Shown piece by piece: positions 2,490-53,400 of a stretch of DNA of 64,000 nucleotides (positions within the stretch are counted from its first letter, which is position 1; each line of letters opens with the position of its first letter). The DNA comes from Lingula anatina (taxonomy: Eukaryota; Animalia; Brachiopoda). Location of the stretch: NCBI GenBank assembly GCA_051362555.1, contig CM120643.1, positions 7,812,001-7,876,000 of the forward strand, given 5' to 3'. The notes below the pieces were generated by a model. That model saw only the letters and a list, made by a program, of their open reading frames with translations, ran no database searches and was not told the origin of the DNA. Made by a program: the position numbers and the translations under genes.

Positions 2490-3532
2490 GGGTGGGGGGG
2501 GGGGGCATGCATCATGTTCAGCATGAATACCAGTGGATGTCTGGGGATGGCTACAGGAACATGGACCCTATCTCCTGATGTCAGGGAGGAAAAAGAAATG
2601 GTTGGAGCCTGGTTCACAAACCTTGACAGCATTGAGACAAATCATCTCCAACAAAAGATTTCAGGAGGACAATATGTCAAGAACAAGTATTTTCCCCAAA
2701 TAAAGGTAGGAAGATGATATAATATATGCAACATGACTGCATTAAAGGGAAATGTTTTTAATAAAAAGGGGGAAACAATGGCCATAATACCAGGAAGATG
2801 CATGTCTAAGGCACAGCCACTTGATGTCTGCCTCAACAAGCCTTTTAAGGACCAATTATGAAAGCTGTGGACTGACTTCATGGGGGGGGGGGGGGGGGGG
2901 CGGTGGACAGCACTGACAGGAGACTTAGCCAAATCTTCACAGCATCCAAGACCACAGTGGTGCAAGGGATTGCCACTGCATGGTCTGGCAGAGATGGTGG
3001 TCAAGTCCTTCAGTGTGACTGGCATTACTGGACAGACACAGACAGACAGACCTGCAGACATCACAGGTATGTTTGACACGTTGATGACAATTGCAAGGAC
3101 TTTCTAGGCTTTCACACAGTGGACAGACTGGACAAATCCATTTGCTAAACAATGACACAGCAATAATTAAACTACTCCAATAAACTAAGTTTAAGATTAG
3201 ATAATATCATATGTTAGATAATATAATCTCTCATAATAAAATCTCTCTTGAAACAAGGTGCCTAGATGTTTCTGCTTAAATTCAGAAATTCTGCTTAAAT
3301 TCAGAAGTAGCTAAAGAGAAATTGAAACCTTGTCTTGACATGATATTTTGTAATAAAACGATGTTGACAAATACATTATAGTTTTTATTGATTTCGTAAC
3401 ATACCCCAGTAACATAAATTACCCTCCTTTGTCTATTGCGACCTCTGATAAGCAATCTTTTAAGATAAATATGAACTTCTGTTATAATATCAACATAATT
3501 TTTTTCAACATGTATACATGTACATGTATTTA

Positions 3533-4699
3533 TCTGCCATGGTAAACATGCATGTTTTCATATCCATTCATTCATCTGTGACACAACTGCATGCCCAGGC
3601 CTTCATTAAAAACATGAAGTCTTTCTCTGGCTATCATGGCTGTGATAAATACACCCAACCAGGCAAATGGGTGGGGGAAAATGACCTTCCCAGAGACAAA
3701 TGCTCCAGTTAGGACTGACTCATCATTTGATGAAATCAGAGATGAAGAACATCATCATGGACCCACTGCACTGTATAAAGTGAATATTGGGATGGTCTCT
3801 TGTTTCACCCTAGACTACCATTAAGACAATTCTCGACCTTCTTTTCAGGTAAGTCAACAAAACAAAATCGAGATGCACTAAAAAAAATATAATTATTTAC
3901 TACCAGACATTGTCCTAGGAAGTAGTGATAAATATCGAACAATATCAGAGGAACAAGGATAAATGCCGATAAGAATAAAAGCTAGAAAGTCAGATTTTTG
4001 AAAATTTCGTCACACCCAAAAGTTGGGGATGCGTAATTTTGAAAAAATCTTCAGATTAACGCAATTAAAAAAAATGATTAATTTTTTCAAAATTTTCAGG
4101 ACTTTACCGTACATGCATGTAGTTTGTTTAGGAGGTGGTGAAACGTTTACTTCTAAGTTTCTTATGTGGATGAAAGGTCCCTTGAAATGTAGACTTGGAG
4201 GTGGCATTTTGAATTAAATATCAAGGTGTTTAGTTTTTTCTTAAACCAAATATACCATCTGAATTTTCCAGAAGGCCAACCTTTGTTTGAAATTGCCTAA
4301 TGGAAAGCTACAGAATTCCGCCAGTTTCTGTTTGGGCACGTTGCACTGTCTGAAATTCTAGACCCCAATTTATATCAACACTTTTTACTCTTATGTGTAT
4401 CAATGCACATATTACTAAATGAACACTTATGTAAACAGTACAATAGTTATGCAAATGAGCTTCTTGTAGTTTTTGTACAGCAGCTTATGCAAATGTACAG
4501 AGAAGAAATGGCAGTATACAATGTTCATGGGTTGACACATCTCTCATTGGATGCTAACAACTTTGGGAGCCTAGATAATATTTCAGCATTTCCTTTTGAA
4601 AATTATTTACAGAAACTAAAACACATGGTGTGGAAACCACCCTTCTCCATATCACAAGTTATAAGAAGGCTGTCTACATATAAGAATTGTGCATCATAA
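3533..4699 (+). pseudogene. EnSpm/CACTA transposase relic
   Basis: Frameshifted pieces carry AFIKNMKSFSGYHGCDK, LDY|MHVVCLG, WKATEFRQF and YNVHGLTHL...GSLDNISAFPFENYL, typical of animal EnSpm transposases. Confidence 0.85.
3818..4109. mobile_element. 292-bp insertion with TA duplication splitting the LDYMH motif
   Basis: TA at 3816-17 and 4110-11. Removing the insert restores CTA GAC TAC ATG CAT GTA (LDYMHV). The TIR match is weak. Confidence 0.6.
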
Positions 4700-4974
4700 G
4701 TAAAACACCCTTCTAGTAAATATCCAATTTTGTCGAAAAGACATGCAAAAGACCCATTACCAGATTCTCTAAAATCAGGCACACAGTTTAGCAAGGTGGA
4801 AACAGAAAAATCCTTAAATGCTAATCACAGCCCTAAATGTGTTGGTAAATTACAGAATAGTGCTGTTTCTTATAAAGACCCAACTCTTTGTGAAAACATC
4901 AGTAGCAAGGAAGCTCATGGTTTTGGCTTTCAAATTTATCACTAAATTGATTTAAATATAATTATTTTAGAAAA

Positions 4975-5368
4975 ATGGCCTTTCTCCTGGTCGAGTTCAT
5001 AGAAGACGCTGACATAGCTATATCGCCTCATAAGTGGATATTAGAGGATATGAAATTGCATTCTGGCCTCCCTTTACAAGAGATAAGAGTGTGCAGACTG
5101 CCATAAAGTCCCACCTAGTCCAGGACAGAACCACATGGAAAAATAGGCATTTTAAGTGTTCCAAACATCTAGAATTAATGTGCATACTACATGTATCACA
5201 TGTTCCAGTCCAAAATGTGACATTTTAATGTCAATTCATTAATTTCATTTTGCAGATGGCTATGACAATGTTAGAAGGAAACTGAACATAGCTCAATATG
5301 AATCTGACATCGTAACAGAAAACGAAGAGATTATTCCAGCATCTCAGAGAAGTAAGAGAAAGAAGAGG
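4975..5368 (+). pseudogene. N-terminal exons of an EnSpm accessory (second) gene
   Basis: MAFLLVEF...KW...FWPP exon, then an AG acceptor at about 5255 and a YDNVRRKLNIAQYESD exon. Lies directly after the transposase relic. Confidence 0.5.
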
Positions 5369-5429
5369 TTAGAAATGTGTCATAATATTAACTAATATCA
5401 CATATTTTATATCTACACATGAATTATCT

Positions 5430-5610
5430 ATGCTGAAAATGAGAAGGCCAAGAGCAGACCAAAAAAAAAAAAAAACTTTTGCAAAAAGAAATGCTAAGGG
5501 AGTAAAAACATTTAATTTGGATGTTGGGGATGCAATTTTGAAGAAACAAATAAAAAACGTCAGGAGAAAGGGTGGCAAACTGGAGAATTTCTGGATAGGA
5601 CCTTACAAGT
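5430..5610 (+). pseudogene. Integrase C-terminal fragment (Ginger/Gypsy GPY module)
   Basis: VGDAILKK...RRKGGKLENFWIGPYK, followed by a GTAAGT donor. Confidence 0.65.
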
Positions 5611-5657
5611 AAGTTATTTGTAATTTTAAATTAAAAAAAAAAATATATATATATATA

Positions 5658-5670
5658 TTTTGCTCACCCT

Positions 5671-5738
<68 letters not shown>

Positions 5739-5751
5739 AGGGTGAGCAAAA
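5658..5751. repeat. Perfect palindrome centred on (TA)30
   Basis: TTTTGCTCACCCTGTAC-(TA)30-GTACAGGGTGAGCAAAA. Confidence 0.95.
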
Positions 5752-5979
5752 ACAATAAAAAAAACTCCTGGAAAAGTTTAATTTAGAAAGTTTTGGCCTG
5801 GAATTTTTTATTTAGATGTTTTCTGTGAGAACAGCTATGAACAGTTTGCTCCAAGAAGATACGGGTTGCATTCTTATACAAACTAGCAGGTGGCTGAATA
5901 TGCTCAGATAGTGGAATAGATTGGTTTTAATGGATTCATCAAGGCTAACGAAAAGGGTCTTTATCATAGATTATAAAAA

Positions 5980-8095
5980 TAACTGGTCTAGTGAGATAAA
6001 TAGTTATAAATAAAATATAATAGAGATAAAATTCACCTCTCTACACAATTAAAGATAAAAAAGGAAAAATCCAGGTGGTACATCATGACAGATTGAGAAA
6101 ATTTATTGAAAGAGAGAGTGATTTTCAGTTGAATGAACCACAATTGGTGGAACCAATTGTAAAAAGATCAAGATTTGGTAGACAAATTAAGATGCCATCT
6201 CAATGAAGAGACTTCAGTTTAAAATTATCATGTTGATGTATATGTTGTTTATTAGTTAAGGTATAGTTGTATATAAATACTTCCTTAATTTTTTGGCAGT
6301 GCTGAAATAAAAGGAATTTAATTTAATTATTTGTATTTTTTATATAGATGATGGATGAATCAAACCTTATCCATATACTAGAAGAAGAATTTCAATGGTG
6401 TAAAGACTGGACTGAATCACCAGAAACTTTATACATATACTCTCTAAGAAATTCAGAAGAAGCCCAAATGATAATCTATTTGGGAAAATTATGGAAGGAA
6501 ATTTTTTTAAGAGAAATTGGATATGATTGGTTTCTAGACCATGAAGAAGAAATCAAAGAGTTATCTAAGGAAGAATGTATAGAATTTTTTAAAATAATTT
6601 TTTTTTGTATTAAAATACAATATCTCAAAGACAAACTCTTTTATTAAAACAACATATATATATATAATAAAAAGATTTATAAAGTATCTGATAGTTTGTA
6701 CTTTATATTATATTTCAGATAAATTGATCAAAACAACAGTCCAAGTTGGTATATGTTTTTTTTTCTAAATATCTGTTTGAATTTTATTGTTGAGCATGAT
6801 GCATTGAACACTGCATGAATAAGTTTATCTATTTTAGTGTTTTTTGGATTATGGTTGTTCTTTAAAAAAAATGAATATATAAGATTATCATATATAATGT
6901 ACGGGTCAAGATTTATGGGTTTACAACTTCAGACTTACCTGAGTTGTGCAACTTCATGTATTCTGGATTTTCTGTTTTCTGTTTCTAATATCCCATGCTT
7001 TCTTACATGCCAGCAAATTTGCTGGGTCAGCTTTCCAGTACCTCTCGCAGTAACCTACTCCTTTCCTTTCTTAGACATGCCAGGCTGTCTGTACTGTAGG
7101 AAGATGTTCACTGATAGAAGCAACTGGAAGCGGCATGAGAGGAGCTGTTTAAATTGCCACAGCAGTTTAAAATTTGTAGAAAACCGTATGCTGGCAGAGC
7201 ATTATAAATGGAAGCATGAATCGGAAAGAATGAGAAGAGCCCAGCAGTCCTAGAGATCTTGGAGAAGCCTCCTCTGCTGGTTGACGTAACACCTGGGGAG
7301 GAGGTGACCCTCACCCCATCCCCTTTCTCCAGCCCCAGGTCAACTAGAAGAAATTTGAAAGTAGGACCACCCCCTCAACAAGACAAACACCCAAGTTCGT
7401 CGGAGGAAGAGGAAGAGAAACCGCCGAGTAAAGTGAGCCAAAGAAAAGTAAAGGAGGAAGATGGGGAGATAGATATGGTAGCCTTATTCCGAAGGGTCAA
7501 GTGACTGCGTGAGAGAGAAGTCCGCTACCCAAATGGGAGAAGAGATATTGTTAGGAGCTTTTACTTTTAATAGAAAAAGAAAAACAATATAAAGAAAGAT
7601 GAACAGTTTGATGACTAAAAGAAGTGAAAAACAAAAAGGTCAATAAAGTCTTGTTAAACTTACAACTGAGTCTTACTTTGATTCAGGAGAATCAAATTTA
7701 AAAGGTTGGGGGCAGTGTAACACTACCCTCCCTCCTTTTCTGTTTGGATTCAAATACCACATTTGCACCTAATCTCTTTAGAAATTCACTGTGGTAGGGT
7801 TAGCGGTTACGTACCTGCCCTCCAGCTTTATTTGATTCCCCCTACTGCAATTGTTTCTGTCAATTATTAGAAACTTTAATTTTAAAATGACAAAACTACT
7901 ACTACAGTACATTGACGATACATGCATGGAAGCTGCCATGTTTGCTACTCAATGTTTTGACCTTCACAGTGACAGCAGCTCGTGCTCCAGGCGGCTACTG
8001 TCACTAGTTTACCACTTTATGCTGACCTACACAGCACGCGCAGTCCCTCTCCATGTGACTGCTGACATCACCGAGTCAGGGTATAAATAGAAGAG
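5980..8095 (+). mobile_element. 3' part of a Gypsy-like LTR retrotransposon (integrase end, 3' region, PPT, start of 3' LTR)
   Basis: LYTIKDKKGKIQVVHHDRLRKF at about 6040-6105. Purine tract AAAAGGTTGGGGGCAG followed by TGTAAC at 7716. TATAAA at about 8083. The LTR right end was not found. Confidence 0.55.
7077..7253 (+). pseudogene. Small zinc-finger-like ORF in the Gypsy 3' region
   Basis: MPGCLYCRKMFTDRSNWKRHERSC (CxxC-x12-HxxxC) plus CLNC...HYKWKH. Preceded by a polypyrimidine-AG acceptor. Confidence 0.5.
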
Positions 8096-8149
8096 CGTGC
8101 TGATGAGAGGGAGCCTTTTTCGACGTAGAAGACTCAGGAGAGGAATCAG

Positions 8150-8447
8150 CAAGCAATGTAGAAGCCTTTTTACCAGATGATTTTGCAGTTAAATATTGAT
8201 TGGCTTCCATTATTTCAGAGCACAAACCAGAATTTCTGGCCCATAGTAGGAAAAATAGTAAACCTCCCGACAAAGAGCCTTTTCTAATTGCTTTATTCCC
8301 TGGGGTATCTAAGCCCGATAATTTAGACAATTATTTACAGACTAGTGCCAACAAATACAAGGTGGATTAATCAGCCATGGTAAACATGTATTCATATCCA
8401 TTCATTCATTCATCTGTGACACACCTGCCCTGGCCTTCATTAAAATC
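8150..8447 (+). pseudogene. EnSpm/CACTA transposase fragment
   Basis: EPFLIALFPGVSKPDNLDNYL and SFICDTPALAFIK. 8373-8447 is homologous to 3533-3615. Confidence 0.7.
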
Positions 8448-9884
8448 ATTTCATTTTTAACTTTGATTTTTGTATCTACAGAGGCCTCCACACAACTCAA
8501 AATTACCAGTAAGTTGTGGCAAATTTATTCAGTTTTCCGACAATGTAAGCATGTAAAGAACTTTGCCTTAAGCTAGGAATTTCACAAATCAATTCACAGT
8601 CATGTGCATAAAAAATGCACGCTCGCCATTTCCACGTTTCAGCCTTGTTTTGGCTTCACATACGTCCGTTTCCATAACCCTTGGAAGGTGATTATCACAT
8701 GTTCGCAGATTCTTATGATATTAACATCAATTTTTCTTTTACAGTACTTACTCATTAGTAAATATTTCTGTTTATTTGTTTATTCTTGTTGCTTTCATTT
8801 AATGGGTCTTGCTTTTAATGTTTTGATATTCTTTATTTGTCTCTTTTGCCGTTTTCACTTGTCAATTTTATCTAATTTTCTACTGTCTCTACTGTGGTGC
8901 CTTTGCCAGTCTTTTGTGTTGTTTGATATTTATACTTCTTTGTCTGCCTGCCTTACTGTCCAGTCGTCAGTTCTGTCCGTATCTGTCATTGTGAGCTTTT
9001 TAACGCCATTTTCCAGTGTGGTGCCTTTGCCAGTCTTTTGGCCTGCTTGCTATTCATACTTGTTTGTCTTCCTGTCAGTGAGTGCTTGAGGCAGATAAAA
9101 TGCTCGGGGAAAATGAAACAGATTTTTCATCAAATGAACAATGGCTTCCTTTTTTCTGATGGAAATTCATCTGTGTAGTTGTAGGTGTTCTGGGATTCCA
9201 CAAAATATTGACAAAAACTCTTCAGTCAAGCAAATGTGAAATGTGGTCACTCACTCATGCAATGCATAAATAAAAAAGACCACACCTACTGAGATCACAC
9301 GCACACACCGACTTTACTTGAGAAGGACAGGAGAAGGACATGACTCTCTTTATAAGATATAGACTCCACAATTTATGTAAGTGTATTTGTTTTAATTTAT
9401 GAGAATCATTGTTTTATATAATACTTTTGAATATATTATATTATTGTATTTTTATTTTTATTTTAGTGACCAGCTATCGGCTATCAACTATCAGCTTATC
9501 AATATCAGCAATTTTGAATAAACTGAAAATAAAGCCAACCGTGTACAAAAAGGAGTTCTGTTCTTTCTAACCCAAAACAGTAGGATATGATTCAAGTATT
9601 AAACTTTTCAATTTCTACCATGTGAATAAGGCCCTGAAGAGTTGTAAGTATCCCAGCTGGGCTATAAGAAAGGTACTGAACAATGTTGGAGCTGATAAGG
9701 AGTCAACACCTGAGGATGACGAGAGAAGACAAGATAAGCCCAAAACCAGTATAGTGATCCCATACATGAAAGGGAGATCAGAACAGCTGAAACGAATTTA
9801 TACAAAACACAAAGTGAATGTTTGCTTTAGACCTCACAGAATACTCAAACAGATTCTTTGTCATTCTAAAGATAAGACTGACAA

Positions 9885-10620
9885 AAAGGGAAGTTTGGCG
9901 TAGTCAAACGTTTATTTATGGCGACAGTCTGATTCTTCACAAGTTTGCAAGTAGCCTCGGATTCAATGCTACACAAGTTGTTAACATTTTTGCTCTAGCC
10001 TCGGATTCAATGCTGCATCTATCGCGATCAGACTCCCTGTCCAATCACGGACGTTTATTATGGCATAACTTGCCGAAAATTTGCATAAGCCTCGGATTCA
10101 ACGCTGCATCTTTTGATCAGACACCCTGTCCAATCACGGATGGGGGTTTCACTTAGGTTCGCGCCTCAGCGTTTAACCAAATGAGCGTTACTATTCCTTC
10201 CCACTTTTTATATAAGGTTCTATAGTGTATGCAATTGTCAGAATAATTTTACGTTCGCCATCTTCAATTTAAACTGTATTAACAGTTACGGATTCACAGA
10301 TATTTCAAGTCGGGACTTTTGGCGAACCTGCTGATAGATCGACGCATCTCCGGCTTTCCCACGAACAGAACTCCAATTTGCTACAAGTAAGTTTTTTCTT
10401 TATTTGAGTTATTGATTTTGCGAATTATAGTAGCATGGCTGTTCTTGTCATTGGGCATTCTTTTGTACACAGGCTCCAATCTTACCTCGACCAAGGTCGG
10501 GACGACCGCACGGCGAAAGACTTTGGATTCCCTGAATCAGTACACTGGCACGGAATAGGTGGCCGTACGGTCCCTAAACTGGTCAGATACGATTTGGGCA
10601 TCCTTCGCCGGGTCCGCCCG
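9885..10620 (+). mobile_element. SGNH-hydrolase cassette copy 1 (3'-truncated; probable Ngaro/DIRS repeat)
   Basis: Starts AAAGGGAAGTTTGGC as in copy 2. Contains three CCTCGGATTCAA(T/C)GCT repeats, CCAAT boxes, a TATATAA, a GTAAGT donor at 10387 and the ORF start MAVLVIGHSFV. Confidence 0.65.
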
Positions 10621-10938
10621 GTTAGTGGCGCAATTTACCATATAAGGTGCCAGGGTAACAAGAACTGTGAATGTGAGAAAGACTACATCGGGGAAACGGA
10701 AAGAACTTTAAAATCTAGAGTGATGGAACATAAAAGACGGAGCCTCACCACCACGGAGGTTTCTAGGCACATTCATGTAGATTATCCAGGACATGAAATC
10801 CCATGGGAGACAGCAAAGATCTTGGACAGGGACCCTTCTTGGTGTGAAAGGGGGGTAAAGGAGTTCATTTACATCAGGGCACATATTAACCCAAGCTTGA
10901 ACAGAGATGGGGGGAGGCACCAATTGTCACATATTTGA
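10435..10938 (+). CDS. Chimeric open ORF: SGNH hydrolase N-terminus (62 aa) fused in frame to the Penelope GIY-YIG endonuclease
   Basis: The provided 167-aa ORF. Junction RRVRP|VSGAIY at 10620/10621. Expression is unknown. Confidence 0.5.
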   Translation: MAVLVIGHSFVHRLQSYLDQGRDDRTAKDFGFPESVHWHGIGGRTVPKLVRYDLGILRRVRPVSGAIYHIRCQGNKNCECEKDYIGETERTLKSRVMEHKRRSLTTTEVSRHIHVDYPGHEIPWETAKILDRDPSWCERGVKEFIYIRAHINPSLNRDGGRHQLSHI

Positions 10939-10988
10939 GACAACGCAATCACCAAAGCACTGGTGAGCAGTGATCGTCCCATATGACA

Positions 10989-11030
10989 TCACACTGAAGA
11001 AGATCATGAATGTGATCAAAAGCTCTGTTA
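10989..11030 (+). ncRNA. Minimal hammerhead ribozyme motif of the Penelope pLTR (probably inactive)
   Basis: TCACA-CTGAAGA-A-GATCA...TGATC-[A]AAA-GC-TC-TGTTA: CUGANGA core, stem II, palindromic AGCT stem III. The GAAA box reads AAAA. Confidence 0.55.
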
Positions 11031-11753
11031 GATATAGCTCTATTTTTAGTGTAAAAATTGAAAAGTTTAAAACTTGAATCATGACTTCCTTTTTTGCCTA
11101 TTTGCTTCAAATAATGTTAACGCAGTTATTTGAGAATGTTGGTATAACCACATATCCTTATCATCATACCAAGTATAGCTGATCAAGAGATAAGATCCTG
11201 CACAACCATCTTTCATAAAATTAGAATTTTCTTTTGTGATTGATTTTATAGCATTTGACTATTGTTGTTCTTGGCTTTGGCTCTATTCTGGCATATGAGA
11301 AAAACCACAATTAGATCAGCATGACAACAAATGAAACAGTGTAAATACACGACTAACAGCAGTTAGTTTACCATGTAAGAGCAAAGGATACACATTAAGT
11401 CTAAATCGAAACCATTTATTATCCTAATTTCTTCTTTTCTTTTTAACCCTTTCTAATGCCATGATGTGATTTCATGTTGGTGCCCATATCTGCAGATTTG
11501 TTTGTGAATTTTTTTAACATGTGGAAAGATTTGGACATGTGAGTTGGTCCAGAAAGGTATATTCATACATTTTACCAAAAGGCTATAACATAATATAATA
11601 TATACAATAATGCTGTGATCTATTATATACAGAATAAATACATTACTTACAGAAATATTATACAGCTGGTAGACATATACTTGGAACATTTTAGACTGCC
11701 AGACATAGAGAATTGAAAGGTGTAAATGCTGATCAAGATAATGTCCAGCTGAG

Positions 11754-14700
11754 GTTACTTTAACTCCTTTTCTACAAATGCCCGAGGGGTGGCCATTCTA
11801 ATTAATAATAACTTCGAGTTTGAATTTTTTAAAGAACAAAAAACAAATGATGGCAATCTCTTAGCGTTGGATATTGGTATAAACAAAGTCCGATTTACTT
11901 TAATTAACATATATGGTCCTAATAGAGATAGCCCAGATTTCTACGAACAAATACGACAAACTATTGTCGATTTTAATAATGAAAACTTTTTCATCTGTGG
12001 AGATTTTAATCTCGTTTTAGACCCGGTGCTAGATTCAAGCAATTACCGTCATGTAAATAACCCCAGAGCAAGGAAGAAAGTAATTGAAATAATGAATGAT
12101 CTTGATATAATTGACTTTTTCAGAGTATTGTATCCAGGAGAAAGAAGGTTTACGTGGAGAAGAAGGAATCCGTTGAGGCAAGCTAGGCTCGATTTTTTCT
12201 TGATCGCCGATAACCTACAAAATTCTGTAAACAACATTTCTATAAATGCAGGTTACCGTTCTGACCACTCATCAATAATACTAGAACTAAAATTAAATAA
12301 ATTCATCAAAGGCAGGGGGACTTGGATCTTTAATAATACTCTCTTAAATGACGTGGAATATGTAACTAAAATTAAGGAAACGATATTAAAAGTTAAGAGA
12401 CAGTATACAATCCCCGTATATAATTTGGAACATATAGATGACATTCCGAACGAGTCTATTACCTTCATAATTGATGACTCGCTATTTTTTGAAACTCTTT
12501 TAATGGAAATTAGAGGCGCGACTATATCATATTCCTCTTACAGAAATAAGCAAGCCTGTAAACTCGAAAATGATTTGGAAAACTCAATAAATGAACTAGA
12601 AACTAATTCTCAATTCCAAGACATTTCAGATCTATTGGAAGCAAAAAAGACAGAATTGAAAAACATAAGACAGAAGAAACTAAAAGGTATCCTTTTGCGA
12701 GCAAAAGCAAGGTGGGTGGAAGAAGGTGAGAAGCCGACAAAATACTTCTGTTTTCTTGAATCTAGACATTACGTGAACAAAACTATACAAAATCTAGAAC
12801 TGCAAGACGGTACTGTTATTTTCGATCAAAAGGAAATACTTAATGAAGCTAAATTATTTTATGAGCGTCTGTATTCCTCAAAAAAAGAATTTGTAGAAAA
12901 AACTGATCTTCGAGTCCTTCTTGACCAATTTAACGTGCCTAAATTAAATGATACCGAAAAAGAACTGCTACAGGGAGAAATCTCCAAGACAGAACTTCTT
13001 ACAGTCCTAAAGAAAATGAAGAATAACAAATCTCCGGGTTCCGACGGTTTTACAACTGAGTTTTACAAATTTTTTTGGTCAGATTTGAAAGAATTTATGG
13101 TCAGAACGGTAAATGAAGTATTTCGTAAAGAAAGGTTACCAACTAGCCAGAAACTCGGCATTATTACTTGTATCCCGAAAGGGGACAAGAATAGAAAATT
13201 TTTACAAAATTGGCGACCTATAACATTATTAAATGTATTTTATAAACTAATATCCGGATGTATAGCTGAACGAATGAAAACTGTATTAGACAAACTAATT
13301 TCCCCTACTCAATCTGGGTTTTTAGCTGGCCGCTATATAGGAGAAAACACACGGTTGATATATGACCTAATGCACATCACAGAAAAACGAAATATTCCAG
13401 GCTTGCTTGTTTTGATTGATTTTGAAAAGGCTTTCGATTCGGTTGACTGGGATTTTATAATTAATGTACTAGACTTCTTTCATTTTGGTGACGCAATTAA
13501 AAAATGGTTTGGGATATTAAATTTCGACTGCAGCGCCTCCATTAGTCAGTGCGGTCATTTATCCGAGTACTTCAGAATCTCGAGAGGATGCCGTCAGGGT
13601 GACCCCCTCTCCCCGTACATTTTTATTTTATGTGCTGAAATACTTTCGTTACTGATCAAGAATAATAGTGATATTACTGGTATAAAGATAGAGAATACAG
13701 AATTTAGAATATCACAATATGCTGACGACACTACCCTCATTCTCAACGGTAGCAGACTCTCATTTCTTGCAGCATTTAATACACTTGATTTCTTTTCAAA
13801 AATATCAGGTTTGGCGATAAATAAGAGTAAGACTAAACTAATTTGGATTGGCGCAAAAAAGTTTAGCAAGGAAGTGTTTCACCATGTAAGATGGAAGATG
13901 AATTGGGTTTATGACAGTTTTAATTTGTTAGGTATTGAATTTACATTGAATTTGCAGGATATGATAAAAACTAATTTTGAACAATACATCGTAAAAATTA
14001 AAAGAATGTTGCAACAATGGGAAAGGAGACCTTTGACGCCCATTGGCAAAATCACTGTACTGAAAACCCTGGTTGTACCCATGTTAAACCACCTATTCAT
14101 TTCCCTTCCCAATCCAGATGAAACATACATGAAATTACTAAACACAATGTTCTTTCAATTTATATGGGGCAAAAAGACGGAAAAAGTGAAAAGGAGTGTA
14201 ATAACTGGTAATTATGAACAAGGTGGTCTTAAGATGCTAGATTTATTTGACTTTATTGCTTCTCTTAAATGTACTTGGATTAGAAGAATTTATCAGACAG
14301 ACAACATATATGTTCCACTTCTCCAAGCTATTTTTGATCGAGATGTAATAAGTTATATATTTACTTTTGGGAATGCGTATCTAGACAAGCTTATTAAGGA
14401 TTGTAGTAACTGTTTTTGGAAAGATGTTCTGGTTTCCTGGAAATTAGTGTTAACACGCTTACTAGAAAGAAAAAGTATAATATCTGTGGAGCCGATTTGG
14501 TATAATGATAATTTTAGGATTGGGGGCAAGCCTGTGTTTATAAGAAAATGGTTTAACAAAGGCGTCAAAATTGTTAGCGATTTTCTTGAAAATAACAGAA
14601 TTTTAACAAAGGAAGAATTTGAACAAAAATTTAGCCTACAAAACTGTTGTGCGCTTACATTTTATGGTATACGAAATTCTATTAAGCACAGGCTTATGAA

Positions 14701-15650: not shown

Positions 15651-15652
<2 letters not shown>

Positions 15653-38842: not shown

Positions 38843-38886
<44 letters not shown>

Positions 38887-43986: not shown

Positions 43987-44323
43987 TAGTGTCCTTGGAC
44001 TTATTGAAAAATCCAAGATGGCCGCCGTATGGCATAGGAATACTAGAACATGTACAATGGTTTTCAACTAACTTATGCCAACTAGGAAGATGCATTGCCC
44101 ACTATCTAATTAATTTTGTTTCTTATTGCACAAATAATATATTTGTGGTGAGTAACTAACCTTTATTCACAGGCAATTTGAGAAAAATCCAAGATGGCCC
44201 CCCATATCAAAGGAATACTAGTATACACATAGGGCTTCTTCTGCCATGGAGATATAATATTGATTGATAAATTAGGCTTATTTCTGAGTATTTTCCACAT
44301 CTTTTTAATTCACATAATACATA

Positions 44324-44421
44324 CCCAGCAGACAAACGACATTGATTCACTGTTGAATCAACGTTAATTTTGGTGGATCAACATTGAATCAACGTAGAAT
44401 CAATGCCGTTTGCCTGCTGGG
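44324..44421. mobile_element. 98-bp CCC-ended mini EnSpm-like MITE
   Basis: CCCAGCAGACAAACGACATTGATTC / GAATCAATGCCGTTTGCCTGCTGGG, TA TSD, internal TTGAATCAACGT repeats. Confidence 0.85.
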
Positions 44422-47400
44422 TATGTGATGAGAATGTTATGTGTATCCTTTTTGAAAACAAAACAAAACAAAATGGCTGCCATTAGCCATAGAAGGTGGC
44501 GTTCAGTTAATACCTGCTAGAGATAGGCTTACAAATAAAATGAAGCTGAATTCAGTTGTTATTCTGTTTTTTTAGCATTATTATCCCGTGATACATATCT
44601 GTTAGGTAATTAATGTCCATATTTTATCTTTTTGGGAAAATCCAAGATGGCCTTCTTTTCCCCATAGGAAAACTGGTGCATTAGATTTTATAGGCACTTC
44701 TTAGGCAAATGAGGGTAATCATGATATTTTTTCAAAATATTTAAGGGTATACACTTTTTACCAACCTGATAGATATCTAAAAGTCCGAAAAGAATGTTGG
44801 AAATACCGAGAAACAAAATTCATTTTATATTGAACCCAATGTCTCTCTGGCAGTAGTTGACTGTACTATTCCTATTGTGAATTGCAGCAATCTTGAATTT
44901 TCTCAAATACGCAAGATGCACACTTGCTAAACACCAGATTTATAAAGAGTAAGGTTAATAAGGATGTCAACATGTTTAAACATCAAACGGCTTTATTTCG
45001 TGTTGGAATCAATGTCTGAACTGTTCTATTAATTGACACCTATGTGCATTTGAATGATATATTCCTATGACAACTGGCAGCTATCTTGGGTTTTCTCCGA
45101 ATAATACTCAAGGATACATACACTTTCAAAACACACAGAGTCTTTCATAGGGATAAATAGGATATGAAAAACATTTAAAAACGACCCAAAGTTAACTACA
45201 CTTAAATCGTACTCAGTGTATCTCTAGCATTATTTGATTATGTGTTCGAATATTCTAATGACAAAAGGCAGACATCTTGAATTTTTTCAGAATACCCAAA
45301 GATACACACATGCTACAGACCAGGTATACATCATAGTGGTAATAATAAATGGAATGAAAAACATAAATTATTTAAAAAAAAGAAAACCCATGGAGATGTA
45401 ATTGTATAATGAACCATATGCCTCTCTAGCAGCAATTGAAACCCACCCATTAGTATTCCTATGTTAAATTGTAGGTATCTTTTTCTCAGAATATCCAAGG
45501 ATGCACACCATTTACCCACCAGAAAAATATATCATAGGACTAATAAGGATGAGCAAAACTTGATAAGCAAACATAAATTCACCCTGGTAATAGATGAAAA
45601 GCCATGGATGTGCAGTTGTAATTCCAGTAGTATTCCTATGGCCAGTGACGGCCATCTTGGGTTTTCTCAAAATGATCAAATATGCACATTTATTACCTGC
45701 TAGATATGTATCAAAGTGTAATAATAATGTGTAAAACACTAAAAAAATAAACTGAATTTGATAGTGAATTAGCTGGCATTAGTTCCAACCTTTTGTAATA
45801 CTAGAAGTATTCCTATTACATATGACGGCCATCTTGGATTTTCTCAAAATGCCCAAGAATACTGTTAGTTACTCACCACATACATATTGTGTGGGTAGAA
45901 AAGATGTGGAAAACACTCAGAAACCAGCTTAATTTGATAGTGAAAAACTAATCTTTCCAGTTGCCATTAGTTTAATCCCCCGTATACTAGAATTCCTGTG
46001 GCACATGGCAGCCATCTTGGATTTTCCAAAATCCCCAAGAACACTTCGTAGTTATTCTCCACAAACATATTATGTGGGTAACAAAGATCTGAGAAACAGA
46101 CTTAATTGAATAGTGGACAACGTATCGTTCTAGCTGTGCACTAGTATTCCTATGGCTGTTTCTATGGCAAATTACAGCCATCTTGGATTTTTTAAAAAGT
46201 CCAAGGGAACTTGTTTGCTATCTGACATATATGAATAAAATGGGTAATAAGGGTGTGGAAAACTCTGAGAAAATAATTTATTTGATAAAAATCAACATAG
46301 GTATGTACATATTTCTAAAGAATTCAATAAATTGGCGGCCATTTTGGATTTTTTGGCCAAACGGTAAATTTTTTCCGTGGGCTACGGCTCTAATTTGATT
46401 TAGAATGTCAAAAGGTACCCACATGCAAAATTTGATGCTTTTATCCGCCGTGTCACGATTTTTTCCTTAAGCCACCGGACTATTTTACCATTGCAGTGCT
46501 TTGGAACAAGACCTGAGGACTTCATTTGGGAGCAAAGGGCGATGAAGGACCATCTCAGCAAGTGCTTTGAAAGTGGACGGCTAGAAATGTTCCCATATAG
46601 AGCAGAGAACCGCCACCATACAAGACCAAAATTGTCTAAATTTCCAATATATTGCCATTGTGGGCAGGTCTATGACAGAAACCAGGGCTGGATTGAATGT
46701 GAAGACTGCCTGCAATGGTTCTATCTCAAATGTGAAGGGATCCAGTCATCTGGCCTGGAGAATCTACATCTTAGGGTGTTATTCTATAGAGCTGTAATCT
46801 GGCAGATAGACACATTGTACTAGTTTGGGAAGGTTCTTGCTAAGTGCAATCATTGCAATTAGCTTAAATGGCTGAGTTACTGAGGAGAAGGTATGCATGT
46901 ACGACAGAAACCAGGACTGGATTGAATGTGCAGACTGACTGCAATCAATTAAAGTGCATCTCAAGTGTGAATGGCCCCAGTCATCCACCCTGGAGAATCT
47001 ACAGCAGTCACGTTGTGCCTGTACATAAAAATCACAGAATATTTATTTATGCCAAATTGTATTTATGGTAATGACATAAAAGTCACTTTTAGCTTTCATT
47101 AAGTATGTCATGTAACTCAGACAAATAAAATACTTCACTGAAAGGAATTACTGTTTTTAGCTTTCTGAATATAACTCAAGTGTGTTGACATCAGTCTTCA
47201 TCTTTCCAGCAGCAGGCAACGAGGCCATAAAACCAAATATTTGTGCTCAAGAAATAATGAAAATCACAGATAAAGTATCACTTGTCCAAAATTGGGAAAT
47301 TACAGAGTCATGAACAGCCATGAAGACATAAACACCCTCCACAGATATTATCACTGCTAAATGACACCATACACAATTCATACTCTCAGACTATACAACC

Positions 47401-48199
47401 TTTAAACCAATGAAACCTCAGGCAAGTGAACCTTCTGACTAGCAAACCTTTGGAACAGCTGGGCATCTGCATCACCAAACTATCAGACCTATGAACCTCT
47501 GACTATTGAACCTTTTGAACCATTGGATCTTGGCATCATCAAACTATCAGACCAATAAACCTTCTTACTGCTGTCATGCACCTGACAAATCATTTAACAA
47601 TGCTAACAATTAACCATTTCATAAATTCACAAAATGACAATATTTAATAATTAAAATAAATATCAGAATCAGAAACAATATTAAGTTATAGGGTAAACAA
47701 CAGATGTGTCCCAAAGTGCTGGACAGATGTGTCACTGTCACAAAGTGCTGGACAGACGCAGTGATCAGAATATAGACAGACTGAACGTGTCTGTATATAA
47801 TAAATATGTGATAAAATTTGCATAATGCAACTTAATGACCTCACAATAACAGAGATCATTTATAAAATATCATAATTGACCTGAAATATATATTCACATT
47901 TAAATATTTTTACTGTCTTGTTCTCTTCAGTGATGGCTTATTGTCTACCACAATCTCACTGTATATGCTACCTCTACTAGTACTGTAACAGTTTCCATGC
48001 ATATGGGGAAAATTATTATAACACATCACAACTGAGCTGAAATATCAATTCACTCTTGAACATTTCCATCATGTTAATTCTTAACAAATGACAGGTGTGA
48101 CTAATAAAACATTTAATGACTATAAAAATTAAATTTCCATTACAATTAAAGCAGTGAAACATTATTTTTATTCATGATAATCCATGCTTTCCTCATTGA

Positions 48200-50540
48200 A
48201 ATCATCATTTCATTGCACCTCCCCCAAAAAATGTACCAACTGGTGTTTGTGTCTCTACACAAAGAGGGGAAACAAATAGCCTATCCTTATTTGTATATAA
48301 AAAAAAAAAACAACCATACATTTTGTCAGCTATCTGCAAGAGGACCAGTCACCTGTTTACAATGGCTTTCCTGTCTCTGGCTGTTCATTCATTCTAAAAC
48401 TTGCCACATCCATGATCCCATGTCTTGCACAACTGGATGAGATGAAGATGTTTCTGTTGCTGTCTTTTTATGTCTGCTTCTTCTAAAATACATGTCCCCC
48501 ATGTTCAGCCAGGTAAAGTCAGTTCACCTAGAAGACACCATGCTGTATGGAGACTGGAGCTGGAAAAAGAGACATGGCAATGTATAAGTGAAGGAACACA
48601 AATTACCTTAACACAAAGAAAAGACAAAAACCTGACAGTCCACCAGAGCCAGTTGGGAAAAATATTAAAACTATGGTACACTGCCAAGTGCCCACCTTAT
48701 ATGGTAGACATCATTGTTGTGGTGATTGAACTGTGATAAGTTAAAAATGACCTTTGCCTTTTGAAGGCTGTTGGGCACAATTGTGACAAAAGAGACCAGC
48801 ACATTCTCAGATTGAATACAGTTTAATAAACAGAATTCTGCCAAATCTGTGGGAATTAATGTGAAATTTGCACACAAAATGCTTAACATCTGTAAAAATT
48901 TGGGATAATTATATCAATTGACTGCAACTAATTGAAAGATGTTTTCTGAGGAGTAATTTGAGTCACTAAAGAAATTACTAATAATAATGACAAAATTACT
49001 TCAACTTAAAGGAAACAAAAAAATATGATAACTGCTTTCTTTCTCTACAGAGGAAGATTAGGAGACCAATTATATATTGTCACATGACTTGTAAAACACT
49101 ATCAACCATTAGTTTAATGTAGCACCTGCCAGCAGTCCAGTTACTGTCATGACAATGGGTCATCCCAGGGAAGTAATGACCACTGCTCCACTTTGGGTCC
49201 AATTTATTTCATCCCAAACTGACCACATCAAGCAGGCCACTACAGAGACCAAACGAGTGTGTAAACTAGAAAAAATATAAACATATATTAAACAAGGCAA
49301 TCAACCACTTGACCACTGATGATAAGAACTAATAAAATTGAGTGCTTCAGCCAGCCAAAGAACATGAATTTCAGACACTATGTTTAAAGCACATGCCATA
49401 TGAACAACATTTTAATTGAACTATTTTGTACAAAAGACTAATGGTTTAAACTAAACCAATTAATTGTCGACAAATGAGAGATATGGATCAAAAATGCCAT
49501 TAATGACTATAAAGATACAATGCAAATTACAATTTTAACTTTTTTTAATAAAGAAGAGTGGATAATTACAAAAACCCATGCTTTTCAAGTCACATTGGAA
49601 ACCACTGGATTCCAAAAATTTTTGTCTCTACAGAGGAAAGAAAGAGACCTATTATACCCACTGTTACTTGAAAAAGAAAAACTGTTCATTTTGTGTACAA
49701 CCTGCAAGAAGTCCAGTTACCTGTTTACCATGGCTGTTCTGTCTCTGGCTCTTCACAACCCATTCATCCTGAAACTTGCTGTGTCTTGTACAACTGTGTG
49801 AGATGAAGGGATATTCCTGCAGCTTCTATTTCCTGTCTATTTCATATTAACAATACATGTCCTCCATTTTCAGCCAGGTAAAGTCAGTTCACCTAGAAGA
49901 CACAATGCTGTATGGAGACTGGAGCTGGAAAAAGAGACGAAAGATTATATTAATGAAGTGACATAACTATCTTAATAAAAAGACAGAACCCTGACAGTCC
50001 ACAAGAGTCAGCAGAGCTAAACCTACAATACCAGTATACTGCCTAATGTCCACCTAATATGACAGACATCACAGTTGTGGTGACTGGACCAAGACAAGTT
50101 TAAAATGTCTTTTGGAGGCTGCTGGGCACAATTGTGACTGCTGAGTTGAGCACAATCTTAGATTAAACATAGTTAAATAAGCAGAACTCTGCCAAATCTG
50201 GAATTTCTGTGAAATTTGCACACAAATTGCCTAACACCTGTAATAATCTGGGATAAGTATTTCAGTTAACTGTGCCTTGTTAAAGTACATTTTGTAAAGA
50301 GTAACATAAGAAAAGTGAAAAAAATTATTTAAATTTACAGAAAACACAAAATATGATAACTGGTTTGTTGATCTACATGGGAAGGATAGAAGACAAATTA
50401 TCTATTGTAACACAACTTGTAAAACAAAACCAAGCAATAATTTTGTGCACTACCTGCAAGGAGGTTTTTTTGGCATGGTGATGGGTGACTGTGGGTAATG
50501 ACCACTGCTCCACCTTGGGTCAAATACATATCACCTGTTA
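48200..50540 (-). repeat. Diverged tandem duplication, period about 1365 bp, with minus-strand splice-like signals
   Basis: Homologous blocks, for example AGCCAGGTAAAGTCAGTTCACCTAGAAGACAC at 48507 and 49872, and TGTGAAATTTGCACACAAA in both copies. Confidence 0.8.
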
Positions 50541-50805
50541 TGACCAGGTCCCGTGGGTCTCACTCGCCATGTGCTTCTTTCACACTCGTTCCCATTACCA
50601 CATCATCCACCAGGTGGTGGCCCCAGTCAAGACGCCACTAATCGGCAGCCGTGTATTGGATATAACATTCCTCCCAACCTTAATTTTTTTCTACAACATA
50701 TAAGCTTAAAAATCATTATCATTATCATTATATTTTGAATCCTGAAGAATTTTCAGTTTTCATATTGTATAAAGTCACATCTTGAGTGCTATATGCTTAA
50801 GCCTT

Positions 50806-51268
50806 TCAGGACAGCGATCCGCCTTCATCCTGATTAAATATCAATTATCTCAGATTACTTTTTTTCAGGACAGCGATCCGCCTTCATCCGGATTACATTT
50901 AAAAAAAAATCTCAGATTACTTTTTTTTTAGGACAGCGATCCACCTTCATCCTGATTACATAGAAATAATCTCAGATTCCTTTTTTTTTTTTAGGACAGT
51001 GATCCACCTTCGTCCTGATTAAATATCAATTATCTCAGATTACTTTTTTTTAGGACAGCGATCCGCCTTCATCCTGATAAATATAAATTATCTCATATTC
51101 CTTTTTTTCAGGACAGCGATCTGCCTTCATCCTGATTAAATATAAATTATCTCAGATTACTTTTTTCAGGACAGCGATCCGCCTTCATCCTGATTACATA
51201 GAAATTACCTCAGATTACTTTTTTTCTCCTCAGGACAGCGATCAGCCTTCATCCTGATTACATATAAA
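50806..51268. repeat. ~60-bp tandem array (8 copies) with variable T-tract
   Basis: Unit GGACAGCGATCCGCCTTCATCCTGATTAAATATCAATTATCTCAGATTAC(T)nCA. Confidence 0.92.
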
Positions 51269-51299
51269 TGATTGAACTGTCACTTTAATACATAATCTT

Positions 51300-52250
51300 T
51301 AAAGTAACCGGTCTTCTGATCGTTCTCTATGGTCTAGTGTAATTGGTTCTGCAATATGATCACTGTTTTTCTCTTGCTGTGGCATCTTCTCATCAATTGA
51401 ATTCTGTGTATTTAATGCAATATCATCTAAGTTTGGAATATTCTGTGTGTCTGTTGCTGCATTGTCACTTTTCACTGTAATATATCACTAAGTTACAATT
51501 CACATGCATCATCTTGTCTTCTCATCTCATTTGTGTTTTCTTTCAAATATAAGTCTGCTGGAATTTTCATTCCATTATCTGTTGTGTTTATGACATTGTT
51601 ACACAGTTTGAATTGACTTGTGTCTCTGCAGATTGTTCTTCTGTCTGTAACTCTTCTGGCAGTAACTTGAGAACCATGTATTTCCATGACGATACAGAAA
51701 ATCAGTTCATATGGTGCTGAGAGTTTGTTTCTTTTGTGCTGTTTAACTAAAACATAGTCACGTATAATGAGCGTATTCTCCCTCAAAGTTTGATTAGTGT
51801 TGGGTCAGTGAGTGTTTTCTCTGCTATCTCACTGAGTATCGCTGCATTTTCAGATTTGACCATCCATCTGATCATCTTCTCTGTACTATGACCACCCATT
51901 TGTGGCAGTGGGTGTCTGGAGAGATAATCTGGGTCTGCATCATTCTTTCCTGGCTCATATACCACTTCATAGTCAACATTTTGTAAGTCCATCACCCATT
52001 TCTCTATTCTCTGTGGTAATTTTGCTTGTGCTTTGTCAAACATGGGTAGTAATGGTTTTGTGTGCTTCAATAATACTAAATTCTTCTCTCATGTCCCAGT
52101 ATGGTTCAATGTCCTCATCTTTTCTGTAGAGATTGCTCATTCCAATCTCCTGTTGGGCCTCCAAGTTTGATTAGTGTTGGGTCAGTGAGGGTTTTCTCTG
52201 CTATCTCATTGAGAATCACTGCATTTTCAGATTTGACCACTCTGTCAAAC
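51300..52250 (-). pseudogene. Rearranged Gypsy pol relic (RNase H end and integrase C-terminus)
   Basis: KPLLPMF...PQRIEKWVMDLQ...YEPGK...DYLSRHP and DYVLVKQHKRNKLSAPY. 51785-51862 is duplicated at 52164-52240. Confidence 0.85.
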
Positions 52251-53049
52251 TGTGTGCCTGAGCTGAAAAAACAAAAAAGAGAAATACTCATTATAAACAT
52301 TCAACAGGCCTGTAGCCAGCTATTTCAAAAGTTTTTTTTTTCCTAAAAAAGTGGACATTTTACCATGAAACCATTGTGTACCTAAATGAAACTTTACCCA
52401 GAGGGAACCTTTTCCCAGCAAAAAGGGCTGTTCGTTCGCATGTCTAAACTGGCAATGGTCCTGGTCAAAGTCAAACTTGGCAGCTTCCTCATATTCACAG
52501 AAATTTGTACTTTCAAAAAATTTCTAATATGCATGATGTTTTGCTATGACTTCATGTAAAAAAAATCAAACTTAAAATTGTCATCATTTTATATTGGCAA
52601 TTTAAGCTAAATTTAGGGGGACATTTGTTGCGACTTTGCATCTTAAGCGGCCCGACATGCCTCAAAATGTGTCACAACACTACATTCAATGCAGGAATGG
52701 TGCAGTCCAGATGTAACATTGTAATAATGTGATGTTATACTTGGCTACATACTGGGGTATGTATGAATTCCTAACATGCAAAGCAATTACTTCACTCCAG
52801 TTGGAGGGCTATGGCTATATAGAGAGTTATAAAGATACCTGATAGGACGATGTGAACACTGCAAAAATCCCCACAAATAACTTTTTAGGACAACATATAG
52901 AAACCCTATTGCTCCCTAACTCTGCTAGAACCGTTTACGTTTTACCTCAGACATTTCCAGAAAACCAGATCTTCTGAATAACACTTATAACACTCCCTTT
53001 ATCTATCCTCTAGCTCTTGTATCTGCAGCTCTCTCTCACTCTCTCTCTC

Positions 53050-53400
53050 TCTCTCAAAAGCCCCGCCCAACTGTCGCTTTCAATCCCAAGACTTCCGGTA
53101 CCAGATCACTGCAACAAATTACTCACCCTCTTGTCATCAAGAATGTCTTTGCATGCATTTAAAAGGATGCTGGAATCGTGGAATGTTCTACTGCTTCAGA
53201 TGAGACTTTGATGGTAACTCATAAATATATCTTGTCCTTGGTATAGCGTTATTTCATAACGTGTAAAATGTTCCCGCTCCACCGAACTAAGCCCGACTAA
53301 GTAGGTCAACGAAAACCCGCAGTGAATACTGGGTCACAGTACATCCGGTCACATGAAGCGCGCCGCAGTTTTACTCTGCGTCCAAGTTATTATATCTTTT
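53050..53400 (-). promoter_or_regulatory. Putative CpG-rich promoter and first exon of a leftward transcript
   Basis: Onset of CpG-rich DNA, GC box CCCCGCCC, CTTCCGG motif. Consensus donor GAGG|GTGAGT on - at 53127/53126. Strong acceptor TTTCTCTTTTTTGTTTTTTCAG on - at 52263. Confidence 0.4.

What the first reader, a model, noticed from the sequence alone, without database searches (positions are those of the whole stretch)
3500..53400. Candidate unistrand antisense transposon trap (piRNA-cluster-like) driven from a promoter at ~53 kb
Seen: from 3.5 to 28.6 kb every coding relic I can recognise lies on the + strand. That is about 18 pieces from unrelated groups (EnSpm, Ginger/Gypsy, Penelope, SGNH cassette, Tx1/L1, Tc1, Sola-like, OTU, Myb), and many are short abutting scraps without their own termini. 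The Ulp1-PHD relic at 42-46 kb is also +. A CpG-rich segment at 53.05-53.4 kb has a consensus minus-strand donor and a strong acceptor at 52263. Known: unistrand piRNA clusters such as Drosophila flamenco are spliced Pol II transcripts that accumulate antisense TE fragments. Inference: a long leftward transcript reads these fragments antisense. Exceptions are the Gypsy relic at 51-52 kb and parts of the two bidirectional elements.
Basis: partly seen in the sequence, partly recalled or inferred. Interest (0 to 1): 0.8.

Follow-up and report, generated by a model that had tools for sequence, protein, structure and literature searches.

The report
One-way transposon debris behind active promoter
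In what is likely a lamp-shell (brachiopod) genome, a promoter makes a spliced RNA that runs towards 25 kb of broken jumping-gene pieces all facing the other way, a layout that would suit a source of transposon-silencing small RNAs, although those small RNAs are untested and the RNA is not shown to reach the pieces.

Summary
At 3.5-28.6 kb, 11 of 11 tool-supported coding relics are on the + strand (p=0.001), among them six separate EnSpm transposase pieces; 11 weaker or by-eye pieces agree. The 53-kb promoter is real: one polyA library shows minus-strand RNA starting just under 53.3 kb, spliced at the predicted donor and acceptor. CpG depletion begins at that same point (best change point 53.15 kb) and runs leftwards. 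Best named homologues are from Lingula anatina. Not shown: that this RNA reads the debris, or any piRNA. Depth over 15.7-28.8 kb is about 50-fold below exon 1, patchy and on both strands. Most clipped exon-1 reads continue into sequence not found in the window, so the block may be intronic. The 25 kb next to the promoter is strand-mixed (3:3), and both Tc1 relics upstream of it are also +. Best reading (0.5): a unistrand piRNA-precursor-type locus; main rival (0.3): ordinary intronic antisense bias. A new candidate member of a known kind; the scan noted the same layout in three other genomes.

The parts
53127..53300 (-). First exon of a leftward spliced transcript; 5' end between about 53.2 and 53.3 kb; donor GT at 53126
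   Evidence: X1 depth 10 in 53075-53299, 0 in 53300-53749, all first-mate +; 5 reads clipped at 53127 and 22 at 53132
53050..53400 (-). Promoter region; CpG change point; two ETS-type motifs (53348, 53098) and a GC box (53068)
   Evidence: change point 53150, 2 of the window's 4 CCGGA[AT]GT and 1 of 4 GGGCGG lie in 52.8-53.6 kb (0.05 expected each); motif names recalled
52946..52990 (-). Small alternative exon (left end exact, right end approximate), donor GT at 52945, joined to 52262
   Evidence: 9 reads clipped at 52264 continue in sequence like 52948-52977 with 4 differences in 30
51300..52262 (-). Exon through a decayed Gypsy-type relic, read in the sense direction; acceptor AG at 52263-52264
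   Evidence: X1 depth up to 12.6, first-mate +; Gypsy label by recalled motifs only
48353..48559 (-). Downstream exon used by exon 1; duplicate copy at 49720-49924
   Evidence: 5 reads join 53127 to sequence equal to 48530-48559; the donor at 48352 is predicted from sequence only; duplication 73%
3488..4939 (+). EnSpm/CMC transposase relic A
   Evidence: tblastn E 1.7e-71, 59% to P0001
5490..6203 (+). Integrase C-terminal scraps and a LINE 3' scrap
   Evidence: Integrase_p58_C E 0.002; the rest by eye
6348..7500 (+). Short ORFs, one with a C2H2 finger; family unknown
   Evidence: zf-C2H2_jaz E 4e-4
8059..8546 (+). EnSpm transposase relic B
   Evidence: tblastn E 8.7e-19
9573..11096 (+). Penelope-like relic with an SGNH cassette (about 9900-10620) nested in it
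   Evidence: Penelope by eye; inverted end pair; cassette 74% to the 17-kb copy
11753..15650 (+). Young 5'-truncated Tx1/L1 insertion, open 1209-aa ORF2, poly-A tail, 17-19 nt target duplication
   Evidence: (RVT_1 E 1.3e-32)
15651..16470 (+). Tc1/IS630-like transposase relic, the target of the L1
   Evidence: HTH_29 E 0.004; 57% to the 21.9-kb piece
16520..17600 (+). SGNH hydrolase cassette, copy 2
   Evidence: Lipase_GDSL_2 E 1.3e-5
17870..19800 (+). Spliced relic, OTU protease piece and integrase-core scrap
   Evidence: OTU E 1.7e-4; others by eye
20094..21100 (+). EnSpm transposase relic C
   Evidence: 82-93% to Lingula anatina P0122 over most of its length, E 2.8e-142
21228..22880 (+). 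Second Tc1-like relic and EnSpm relic D
   Evidence: tblastx link; tblastn E 2e-5
25185..26130 (+). Two Myb/SANT-like exon scraps
   Evidence: Myb_DNA-bind_5 E 0.014 and 0.005, at noise level singly
26720..28600 (+). EnSpm relics E and F
   Evidence: tblastn E 1.3e-14 and 4.5e-20; DUF4218 E 1.9e-6
28840..42120 (.). 13.3-kb EnSpm-type element with terminal inverted repeats and subterminal arrays; transposase N-terminus on - (32327-32623), spliced accessory-type gene on + (38.9-40.9 kb), nested THAP/HTH_Tnp_4 (+) and SAP (-) pair at 35.0-37.4 kb
   Evidence: ends; arrays; domains; transposase piece E 0.036
42322..46820 (+). PHD-bearing relic interrupted by a 3.8-kb inverted-repeat element (42693-46482)
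   Evidence: PHD E 0.004; arms 87% over 280 nt; Ulp1 label by eye only
2001..53000 (.). CpG-depleted domain left of the promoter (o/e 0.41 against 0.86 at 53.4-62 kb)

Best explanation
A promoter at about 53.3 kb makes a leftward, alternatively spliced RNA with no long reading frame in the exons seen, and the one-strand transposon debris at 3.5-28.6 kb likely lies inside this transcription unit and likely serves as template for antisense piRNAs. Shown: the promoter, its direction, the splice sites, the strand bias and the CpG step. Inferred: transcription has long continued leftwards in the germ line (hence CpG loss by gene-body methylation); insertions of many families landed and were cut down by deletion; antisense pieces were kept because they yield silencing RNAs and do not stop the transcript; varied splicing from one first exon spreads the pieces over many low-abundance precursors, which PIWI-pathway processing would further deplete from polyA RNA.
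For: Strand-pure block: 11 of 11, run probability 0.004 for 11 in 18 and 7e-5 for 17 in 24 at even odds. Six EnSpm pieces, five of them from the same C-terminal part of the protein at 35-57% identity to each other where compared, so they are separate insertions. Hand-drawn relic intervals cover 16811 of 25113 nt, median 476 nt. Minus-strand RNA from 53.3 kb in X1, near absent in X4, X5, X7, so not housekeeping. One first exon, several continuations, as described for flamenco (PMC4120762, passages). CpG change point at the RNA start, 5 of 2000 block permutations reach it. A young L1 is also antisense. Sparse reads in the block lean to minus-strand RNA, summed depth 7.76 against 2.78 after dropping 4 multi-copy bins. 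The piRNA pathway is reported as conserved in almost all Lophotrochozoa (PMC11114477, passage), and Lymnaea clusters are rich in DNA transposons (PMC6128900, passage).
Against: No piRNA data. Depth over 15.7-28.8 kb is 0.18 in X1 against 10 on exon 1, with both strands and no splice joint; the lean is not significant (17 against 9 occupied run-bins, p 0.17). 22 clipped exon-1 reads continue into sequence not found in the window. The proximal 25 kb is 3:3 and the Gypsy relic is read sense, the reverse of the flam-like pattern in which sense insertions are rare near the 5' end and the bias is Gypsy-driven (PMC10643416, passages). Both Tc1 relics upstream of the promoter are +. AATAAA is not depleted on the minus strand (38 + against 39 -). 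107 of 137 X1 reads are only 95-99% alike, so part of the signal may come from a paralogue or a divergent haplotype. At a 2:1 or 3:1 intronic bias an 11-run has probability 0.04 or 0.12.
Confidence: 0.5

Rival explanations
1. The block lies in a long intron of an ordinary gene or lncRNA whose first exon is at 53 kb and whose next main exon is left of the window; sense insertions were purged because their splice and poly-A signals damage the transcript, and no piRNAs are made from it.
For: The commonest exon-1 continuation is not in the window; depth in the block is intron-like, about 50-fold below exon 1; CpG loss is the usual gene-body and intron signature in invertebrates (PMC8857917, passages on cnidarians); ETS and GC-box motifs are ordinary promoter parts; antisense bias of intronic LINEs and LTRs is established in mammals (PMC3088655, passages).
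Against: Purity (about 17-19 insertions, none sense) and density (67%) are high for such a bias: run of 17 in 24 has probability 0.003 at 2:1 and 0.02 at 3:1; the cited paper left DNA transposons out of its orientation analysis; expression is restricted to 1 of 4 runs; exons seen give ORFs of 37 and 86 aa only.
Confidence: 0.3
2. Two separate things: a short spliced lncRNA at about 47-53.3 kb, and a one-strand block that was shaped by another leftward promoter (for example read-through from the 28.8-42.1 kb EnSpm-type element) or cut off from its promoter by that insertion.
For: All exons located lie at 48.3-53.3 kb; strand purity stops at the element's left end and cumulative GC skew turns at 29-30 kb; minus-strand AATAAA sites exist at 44-48 kb.
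Against: CpG depletion is continuous from 53.2 kb to at least 17.7 kb; no read pile-up at 28.4-28.8 kb. The 28.8-51.3 kb interval was not covered by reads, so this is untested.
Confidence: 0.13
3. Chance: a repeat-dense region whose orientation run was picked out after the fact from very many windows.
For: Boundaries were chosen after looking; the scan covers about 250,000 windows; half of the pieces are by-eye calls; no genome background was available.
Against: The run is unlikely even with free boundaries (0.004 strict, 7e-5 full), and its direction agrees with an independently shown promoter and CpG step.
Confidence: 0.07

Closest known systems
flamenco and flam-like unistrand piRNA clusters of Drosophila (PMC10643416, PMC4120762; passages read)
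   Same: Discrete promoter, one direction, spliced RNA with a shared first exon and several continuations, transposon fragments mostly antisense.
   Different: Flam-like bias is carried by Gypsy LTR elements and is strongest near the promoter; here the archive is mostly DNA-transposon and LINE scraps, purity is in the distal half, the one Gypsy-type relic is sense, and no piRNAs are shown.
piRNA clusters of molluscs (Lymnaea stagnalis, Crassostrea gigas; PMC6128900, PMC11067994; passages read) and unistrand clusters of Nematostella (402 of 457; PMC5731801, passage read)
   Same: Transposon-rich loci in marine and freshwater invertebrates, with DNA transposons enriched in Lymnaea and stage- or tissue-restricted activity.
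   Different: Those are defined by small-RNA mapping; the passages seen give sizes of 2.7-17 kb for the molluscs of PMC11067994 and do not describe promoters or insertion orientation; they stress young elements, while most pieces here are decayed.
Antisense orientation bias of intronic transposons (PMC3088655, mammals; passages read)
   Same: Elements inside a transcription unit lie mostly antisense.
   Different: Described for LINE and LTR elements as a partial bias; here it is complete over 25 kb and mostly involves DNA-transposon coding scraps.

Membership tests
Unistrand (flamenco-type) piRNA cluster | Discrete promoter, transcription in one direction | tested here: met
   X1: minus-strand RNA from just under 53.3 kb, none at 53300-53749 on either strand
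Unistrand (flamenco-type) piRNA cluster | Spliced precursor with a shared first exon and varied downstream exons | tested here: met
   Exon 1 continues into 48559 (5 reads), near 52260 (2 reads, imperfect) and an unlocated sequence (majority of 22 reads); 52946 joins 52262 (9 reads); paralogue origin of some reads not excluded
Unistrand (flamenco-type) piRNA cluster | Transposon fragments predominantly antisense to the transcript | tested here: met
   11 of 11 in 3.5-28.6 kb; 3 + and 3 - in 28.6-53 kb
Unistrand (flamenco-type) piRNA cluster | The precursor covers the fragments | tested here: inconclusive
   47, 34, 21 and 3 reads on 13.1 kb, both strands, no splice joints; CpG depletion continuous
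Unistrand (flamenco-type) piRNA cluster | Uniquely mapping 24-32 nt, 1U-biased small RNAs from one strand | not testable with these tools
   No small-RNA run was listed
Unistrand (flamenco-type) piRNA cluster | Non-coding transcript | tested here: inconclusive
   Longest ATG frames 37 and 86 aa in two predicted spliced forms; the unlocated exon is unknown
Unistrand (flamenco-type) piRNA cluster | Gonadal or germ-line expression | not testable with these tools
   Tissues are coded; exon 1 on in X1, near zero in X4, X5, X7
Drosophila flam-like loci in the strict sense | Antisense Gypsy enrichment, sense insertions rare near the 5' end | tested here: not met
   Content is mostly EnSpm, Tc1-like and LINE; the Gypsy-type relic next to the promoter is sense (criterion)
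Ordinary host-gene intron with antisense bias | A downstream exon left of the block, spliced to exon 1 | not testable with these tools
   No whole genome; the unlocated continuation is absent from the window

The most novel reading that the evidence does not exclude
A flamenco-type master locus in a brachiopod: one promoter, marked by a sharp CpG step and possibly present in several paralogous copies, feeds alternatively spliced precursors through an archive of short internal coding scraps from many transposon superfamilies, mainly DNA transposons (six EnSpm lineages), so that one locus silences a broad range of elements instead of Gypsy alone.
Probability: 0.25. Interest if true: 0.65.

Novelty: new member of a known kind. 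Interest (0 to 1): 0.45.

Why it matters
Unistrand piRNA clusters are known, but their promoters and insertion patterns are worked out mainly in flies and mammals. Two literature searches (listings only) showed no paper whose title or abstract start describes a brachiopod piRNA cluster. If small RNAs confirm it, this gives a lophotrochozoan cluster with a mapped promoter and first exon, an archive dominated by DNA transposons, and a cheap sequence-only rule (strand-pure debris plus a CpG step facing it) for finding such loci. If not, it is a strong case of intronic antisense selection acting on DNA transposons.

Tried and rejected
No whole genome is held, so no background strand ratio and no search for the unlocated exon or for promoter paralogues. 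RNA-run search: no RNA holder listed; nine same-species raw-read runs were offered, none small-RNA; 6 of the 9 were laid (X1-X5, X7). Only 51275-58000 and 15660-28800 were laid; 28.8-51.3 kb and 1-15.6 kb have no read data. Pfam, NCBIfam, PDB and homologue searches did not confirm the by-eye Penelope, Gypsy, integrase-core, pogo, LINE-tail, Ulp1 or Tc1-like labels; a whole-window Pfam scan reading through stops was not obtained. The Atlas gave no answer for the 6348-6644 ORF. No Rfam match. A-MYB/OVO-type promoter motifs: one MYB-type site near the promoter against 1.1 expected, no CNGTTA (motif from PMC11789646, passages): no support. Splice-signal and AATAAA strand counts in the block: no clear asymmetry. 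A central bidirectional promoter at the GC-skew turn (29-30 kb) was considered and dropped: the turn coincides with the end of an inserted element and the right half has as many + as - relics. The idea that the EnSpm pieces are one broken element was rejected: five repeat the same C-terminal protein region at low identity. No supplements were read; cluster coordinate tables in them could bear on size and orientation comparisons.
Full report
Setting. The window is 35% G+C animal DNA packed with transposon remains. The best named homologues of two EnSpm-type transposase relics are Lingula anatina proteins, at 65% and 82%; the decayed relic at 20094-21100 is 82-93% identical to the second over most of its length. 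The genome is therefore likely that of a lingulid brachiopod (inference). No whole genome is held.

The strand bias. All 691 stop-free segments of 40 aa or more (340 +, 351 -) were scanned with Pfam, and 120 plus 1 EnSpm-type homologues were run against both strands. Between 3.5 and 28.6 kb eleven relics have good support and all are +: six EnSpm pieces (E from 2e-5 to 2.8e-142), the Tx1/L1 ORF2, two SGNH cassettes, an OTU piece and a C2H2-finger ORF; two-sided p = 0.001. Five of the EnSpm pieces repeat the same C-terminal protein region, at 35-57% identity where compared, and the sixth overlaps relic A at 80% nucleotide identity, so they are separate insertions. Six minus-strand Pfam hits at E<=0.02 fall in the span; none is a transposon family, four lie on the back of + relics, and about 14 false hits are expected from 691 queries at that cut-off. 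The longest minus-strand stop-free segment outside L1 has no homologue. Eleven further + pieces rest on weak Pfam hits (Integrase_p58_C, HTH_29, two Myb) or on motifs I recall (Penelope, LINE tail, integrase core and tail, a second Tc1-like piece linked by tblastx, a short ORF, a spliced relic); searches meant to confirm these labels were blank. My hand-drawn intervals cover 16811 of 25113 nt, median 476 nt, and only two inverted-repeat pairs lie in the block, none around an EnSpm piece. Allowing free boundaries, a run of 11 in 18 has probability 0.004 at even odds, 0.04 at 2:1 and 0.12 at 3:1; a run of 17 in 24 has 7e-5, 0.003 and 0.02.

Limits of the bias. From 28.6 to 53 kb the count is three + (THAP with HTH_Tnp_4, a spliced gene at 38.9-40.9 kb seen by eye, the PHD relic) and three - (EnSpm N-terminus E 0.036, SAP E 1.4e-9, the Gypsy-type relic by eye). 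Four of these sit in one 13.3-kb element with inverted ends at 28840 and 42120. Upstream of the promoter both Tc1 relics are also +, so no switch of orientation marks the promoter, though two cases say little.

The promoter. In polyA run X1, 137 reads lie on 51275-58000; depth is 10 at 53075-53299 and 0 at 53300-53749, all with the first mate on +. These reads break at minus-strand GT and AG sites, which fixes the RNA as minus-strand. Five reads leave exon 1 at 53127 and continue in sequence equal to 48530-48559, the start of a minus-strand exon behind a pyrimidine tract; its duplicate at 49924 differs by one letter in the tested 24. Nine reads use the acceptor at 52263, coming from a small exon that ends at 52946, with 4 differences in 30 letters. 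Twenty-two reads clipped at 53132 give a mixed consensus (agreement 0.69) that is not in the window: an exon beyond the left edge, a paralogue or another haplotype. 107 of 137 reads are 95-99% alike, so some may come from a paralogous locus. X4, X5 and X7 have depth 0, 0.16 and 0 on exon 1. Two predicted spliced forms hold ATG frames of at most 37 and 86 aa.

The CpG step. CpG observed/expected is 0.41 over 2-53 kb and 0.86 over 53.4-62 kb; the best single change point is 53150, reached by 5 of 2000 permutations of 1-kb blocks; with two change points the most depleted domain is 17.7-53.2 kb. In invertebrates methylation is concentrated on gene bodies, introns and intronic transposons (PMC8857917, passages, mainly cnidarian data), so this is the expected trace of a long unit transcribed in the germ line (inference). 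It fits a piRNA precursor and an ordinary long intron equally.

Does the RNA reach the block? On 15660-28800, X1, X2, X3 and X4 gave 47, 34, 21 and 3 reads, patchy, on both strands, with no splice joint and with loose ends only at two multi-copy spots. Mean minus-RNA depth in X1 is 0.18, about 50-fold below exon 1. Summed depth is 11.65 against 6.92 in favour of minus-strand RNA, 7.76 against 2.78 after dropping four bins with multi-copy sequence; by occupied run-bins 17 against 9, p = 0.17. About 6% of each run was read and reads under 95% identity were not counted. So the block is not a constant exon of the main polyA RNA; low-level read-through is possible but not shown. No small-RNA run was listed.

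How it most likely works. Shown: a sample-restricted leftward promoter, varied splicing, a CpG-depleted domain starting at it, and strand-pure debris 25-50 kb downstream, including one young antisense L1 with intact target duplication. Inferred: the unit extends through the debris, antisense pieces were kept, and precursors are cut into piRNAs (0.5). For flamenco a constant first exon is joined through introns of 0.7 to 158 kb to many downstream parts (PMC4120762, passage), which would give the high exon-1 and low distal depth seen here. But the same data fit a long intron with purifying selection against sense insertions (0.3), and the 53-kb RNA could be a short lncRNA unrelated to the block (0.13). 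Chance is least likely (0.07).

Comparison. It is laid out like a unistrand cluster; membership is not established because the defining small RNAs are untested. It fails the strict flam-like pattern: there the bias is carried by Gypsy elements and sense insertions are rare near the 5' end (PMC10643416, passages). DNA-transposon-rich clusters are reported in Lymnaea (PMC6128900, passages), most Nematostella clusters are unistrand (PMC5731801, passage), and mollusc clusters of 2.7-17 kb are listed in PMC11067994 (passages). The piRNA pathway is reported as conserved in almost all Lophotrochozoa (PMC11114477, passage). Searches for Lingula or brachiopod with piRNA returned 4 and 10 papers (4 and 8 listed; listings only), none on a brachiopod cluster by title or abstract start. 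Three earlier notes of this scan describe the same layout in other genomes; they are unchecked and are not counted as support.

Verdict. Real feature, real promoter, unproven function: a good candidate new member of a known kind, interest 0.45.

Noticed in passing
window 11735-15667: Young 5'-truncated Tx1/L1 with an open 1209-aa ORF2, A45 tail and a 17-19 nt target duplication, inserted in a Tc1-like relic; CpG o/e 0.86, so little decayed.
   Followed up: yes
window 28840-42120: 13.3-kb element with 13-nt inverted ends starting CCC, TA on both flanks, and long subterminal arrays of 34-41 nt units; divergent transposase and accessory-type gene; likely EnSpm/CMC type.
   Followed up: partly
window 35040-37430: THAP and HTH_Tnp_4 on + facing a SAP-domain gene on -, the layout I recall for ISL2EU/Harbinger-related elements; nested in the large element.
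   Followed up: partly
window 42693-46482: 3.8-kb non-coding element with 280-nt inverted arms (87%) and internal repeats of about 180 nt, splitting the PHD-bearing relic.
   Followed up: no
window 48303-50533: Tandem duplication (73% identity) that copies an exon with its acceptor and donor; reads use the left copy. CpG is almost absent here (0 in 48001-49000).
   Followed up: partly
window 10408-10935: A 176-aa open frame formed by a truncated SGNH cassette abutting a Penelope-like endonuclease piece in frame; probably accidental.
   Followed up: no
window 50804-51269: 58-nt minisatellite, about 8 copies, between the Gypsy-derived exon and the duplicated exons.
   Followed up: no
   Followed up: no
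window 51785-52138: X1 reads carry about 15 recurring differences in 350 nt, some in all reads and some in about half, pointing to paralogous copies of the transcribed unit or to strongly divergent haplotypes.
   Followed up: no
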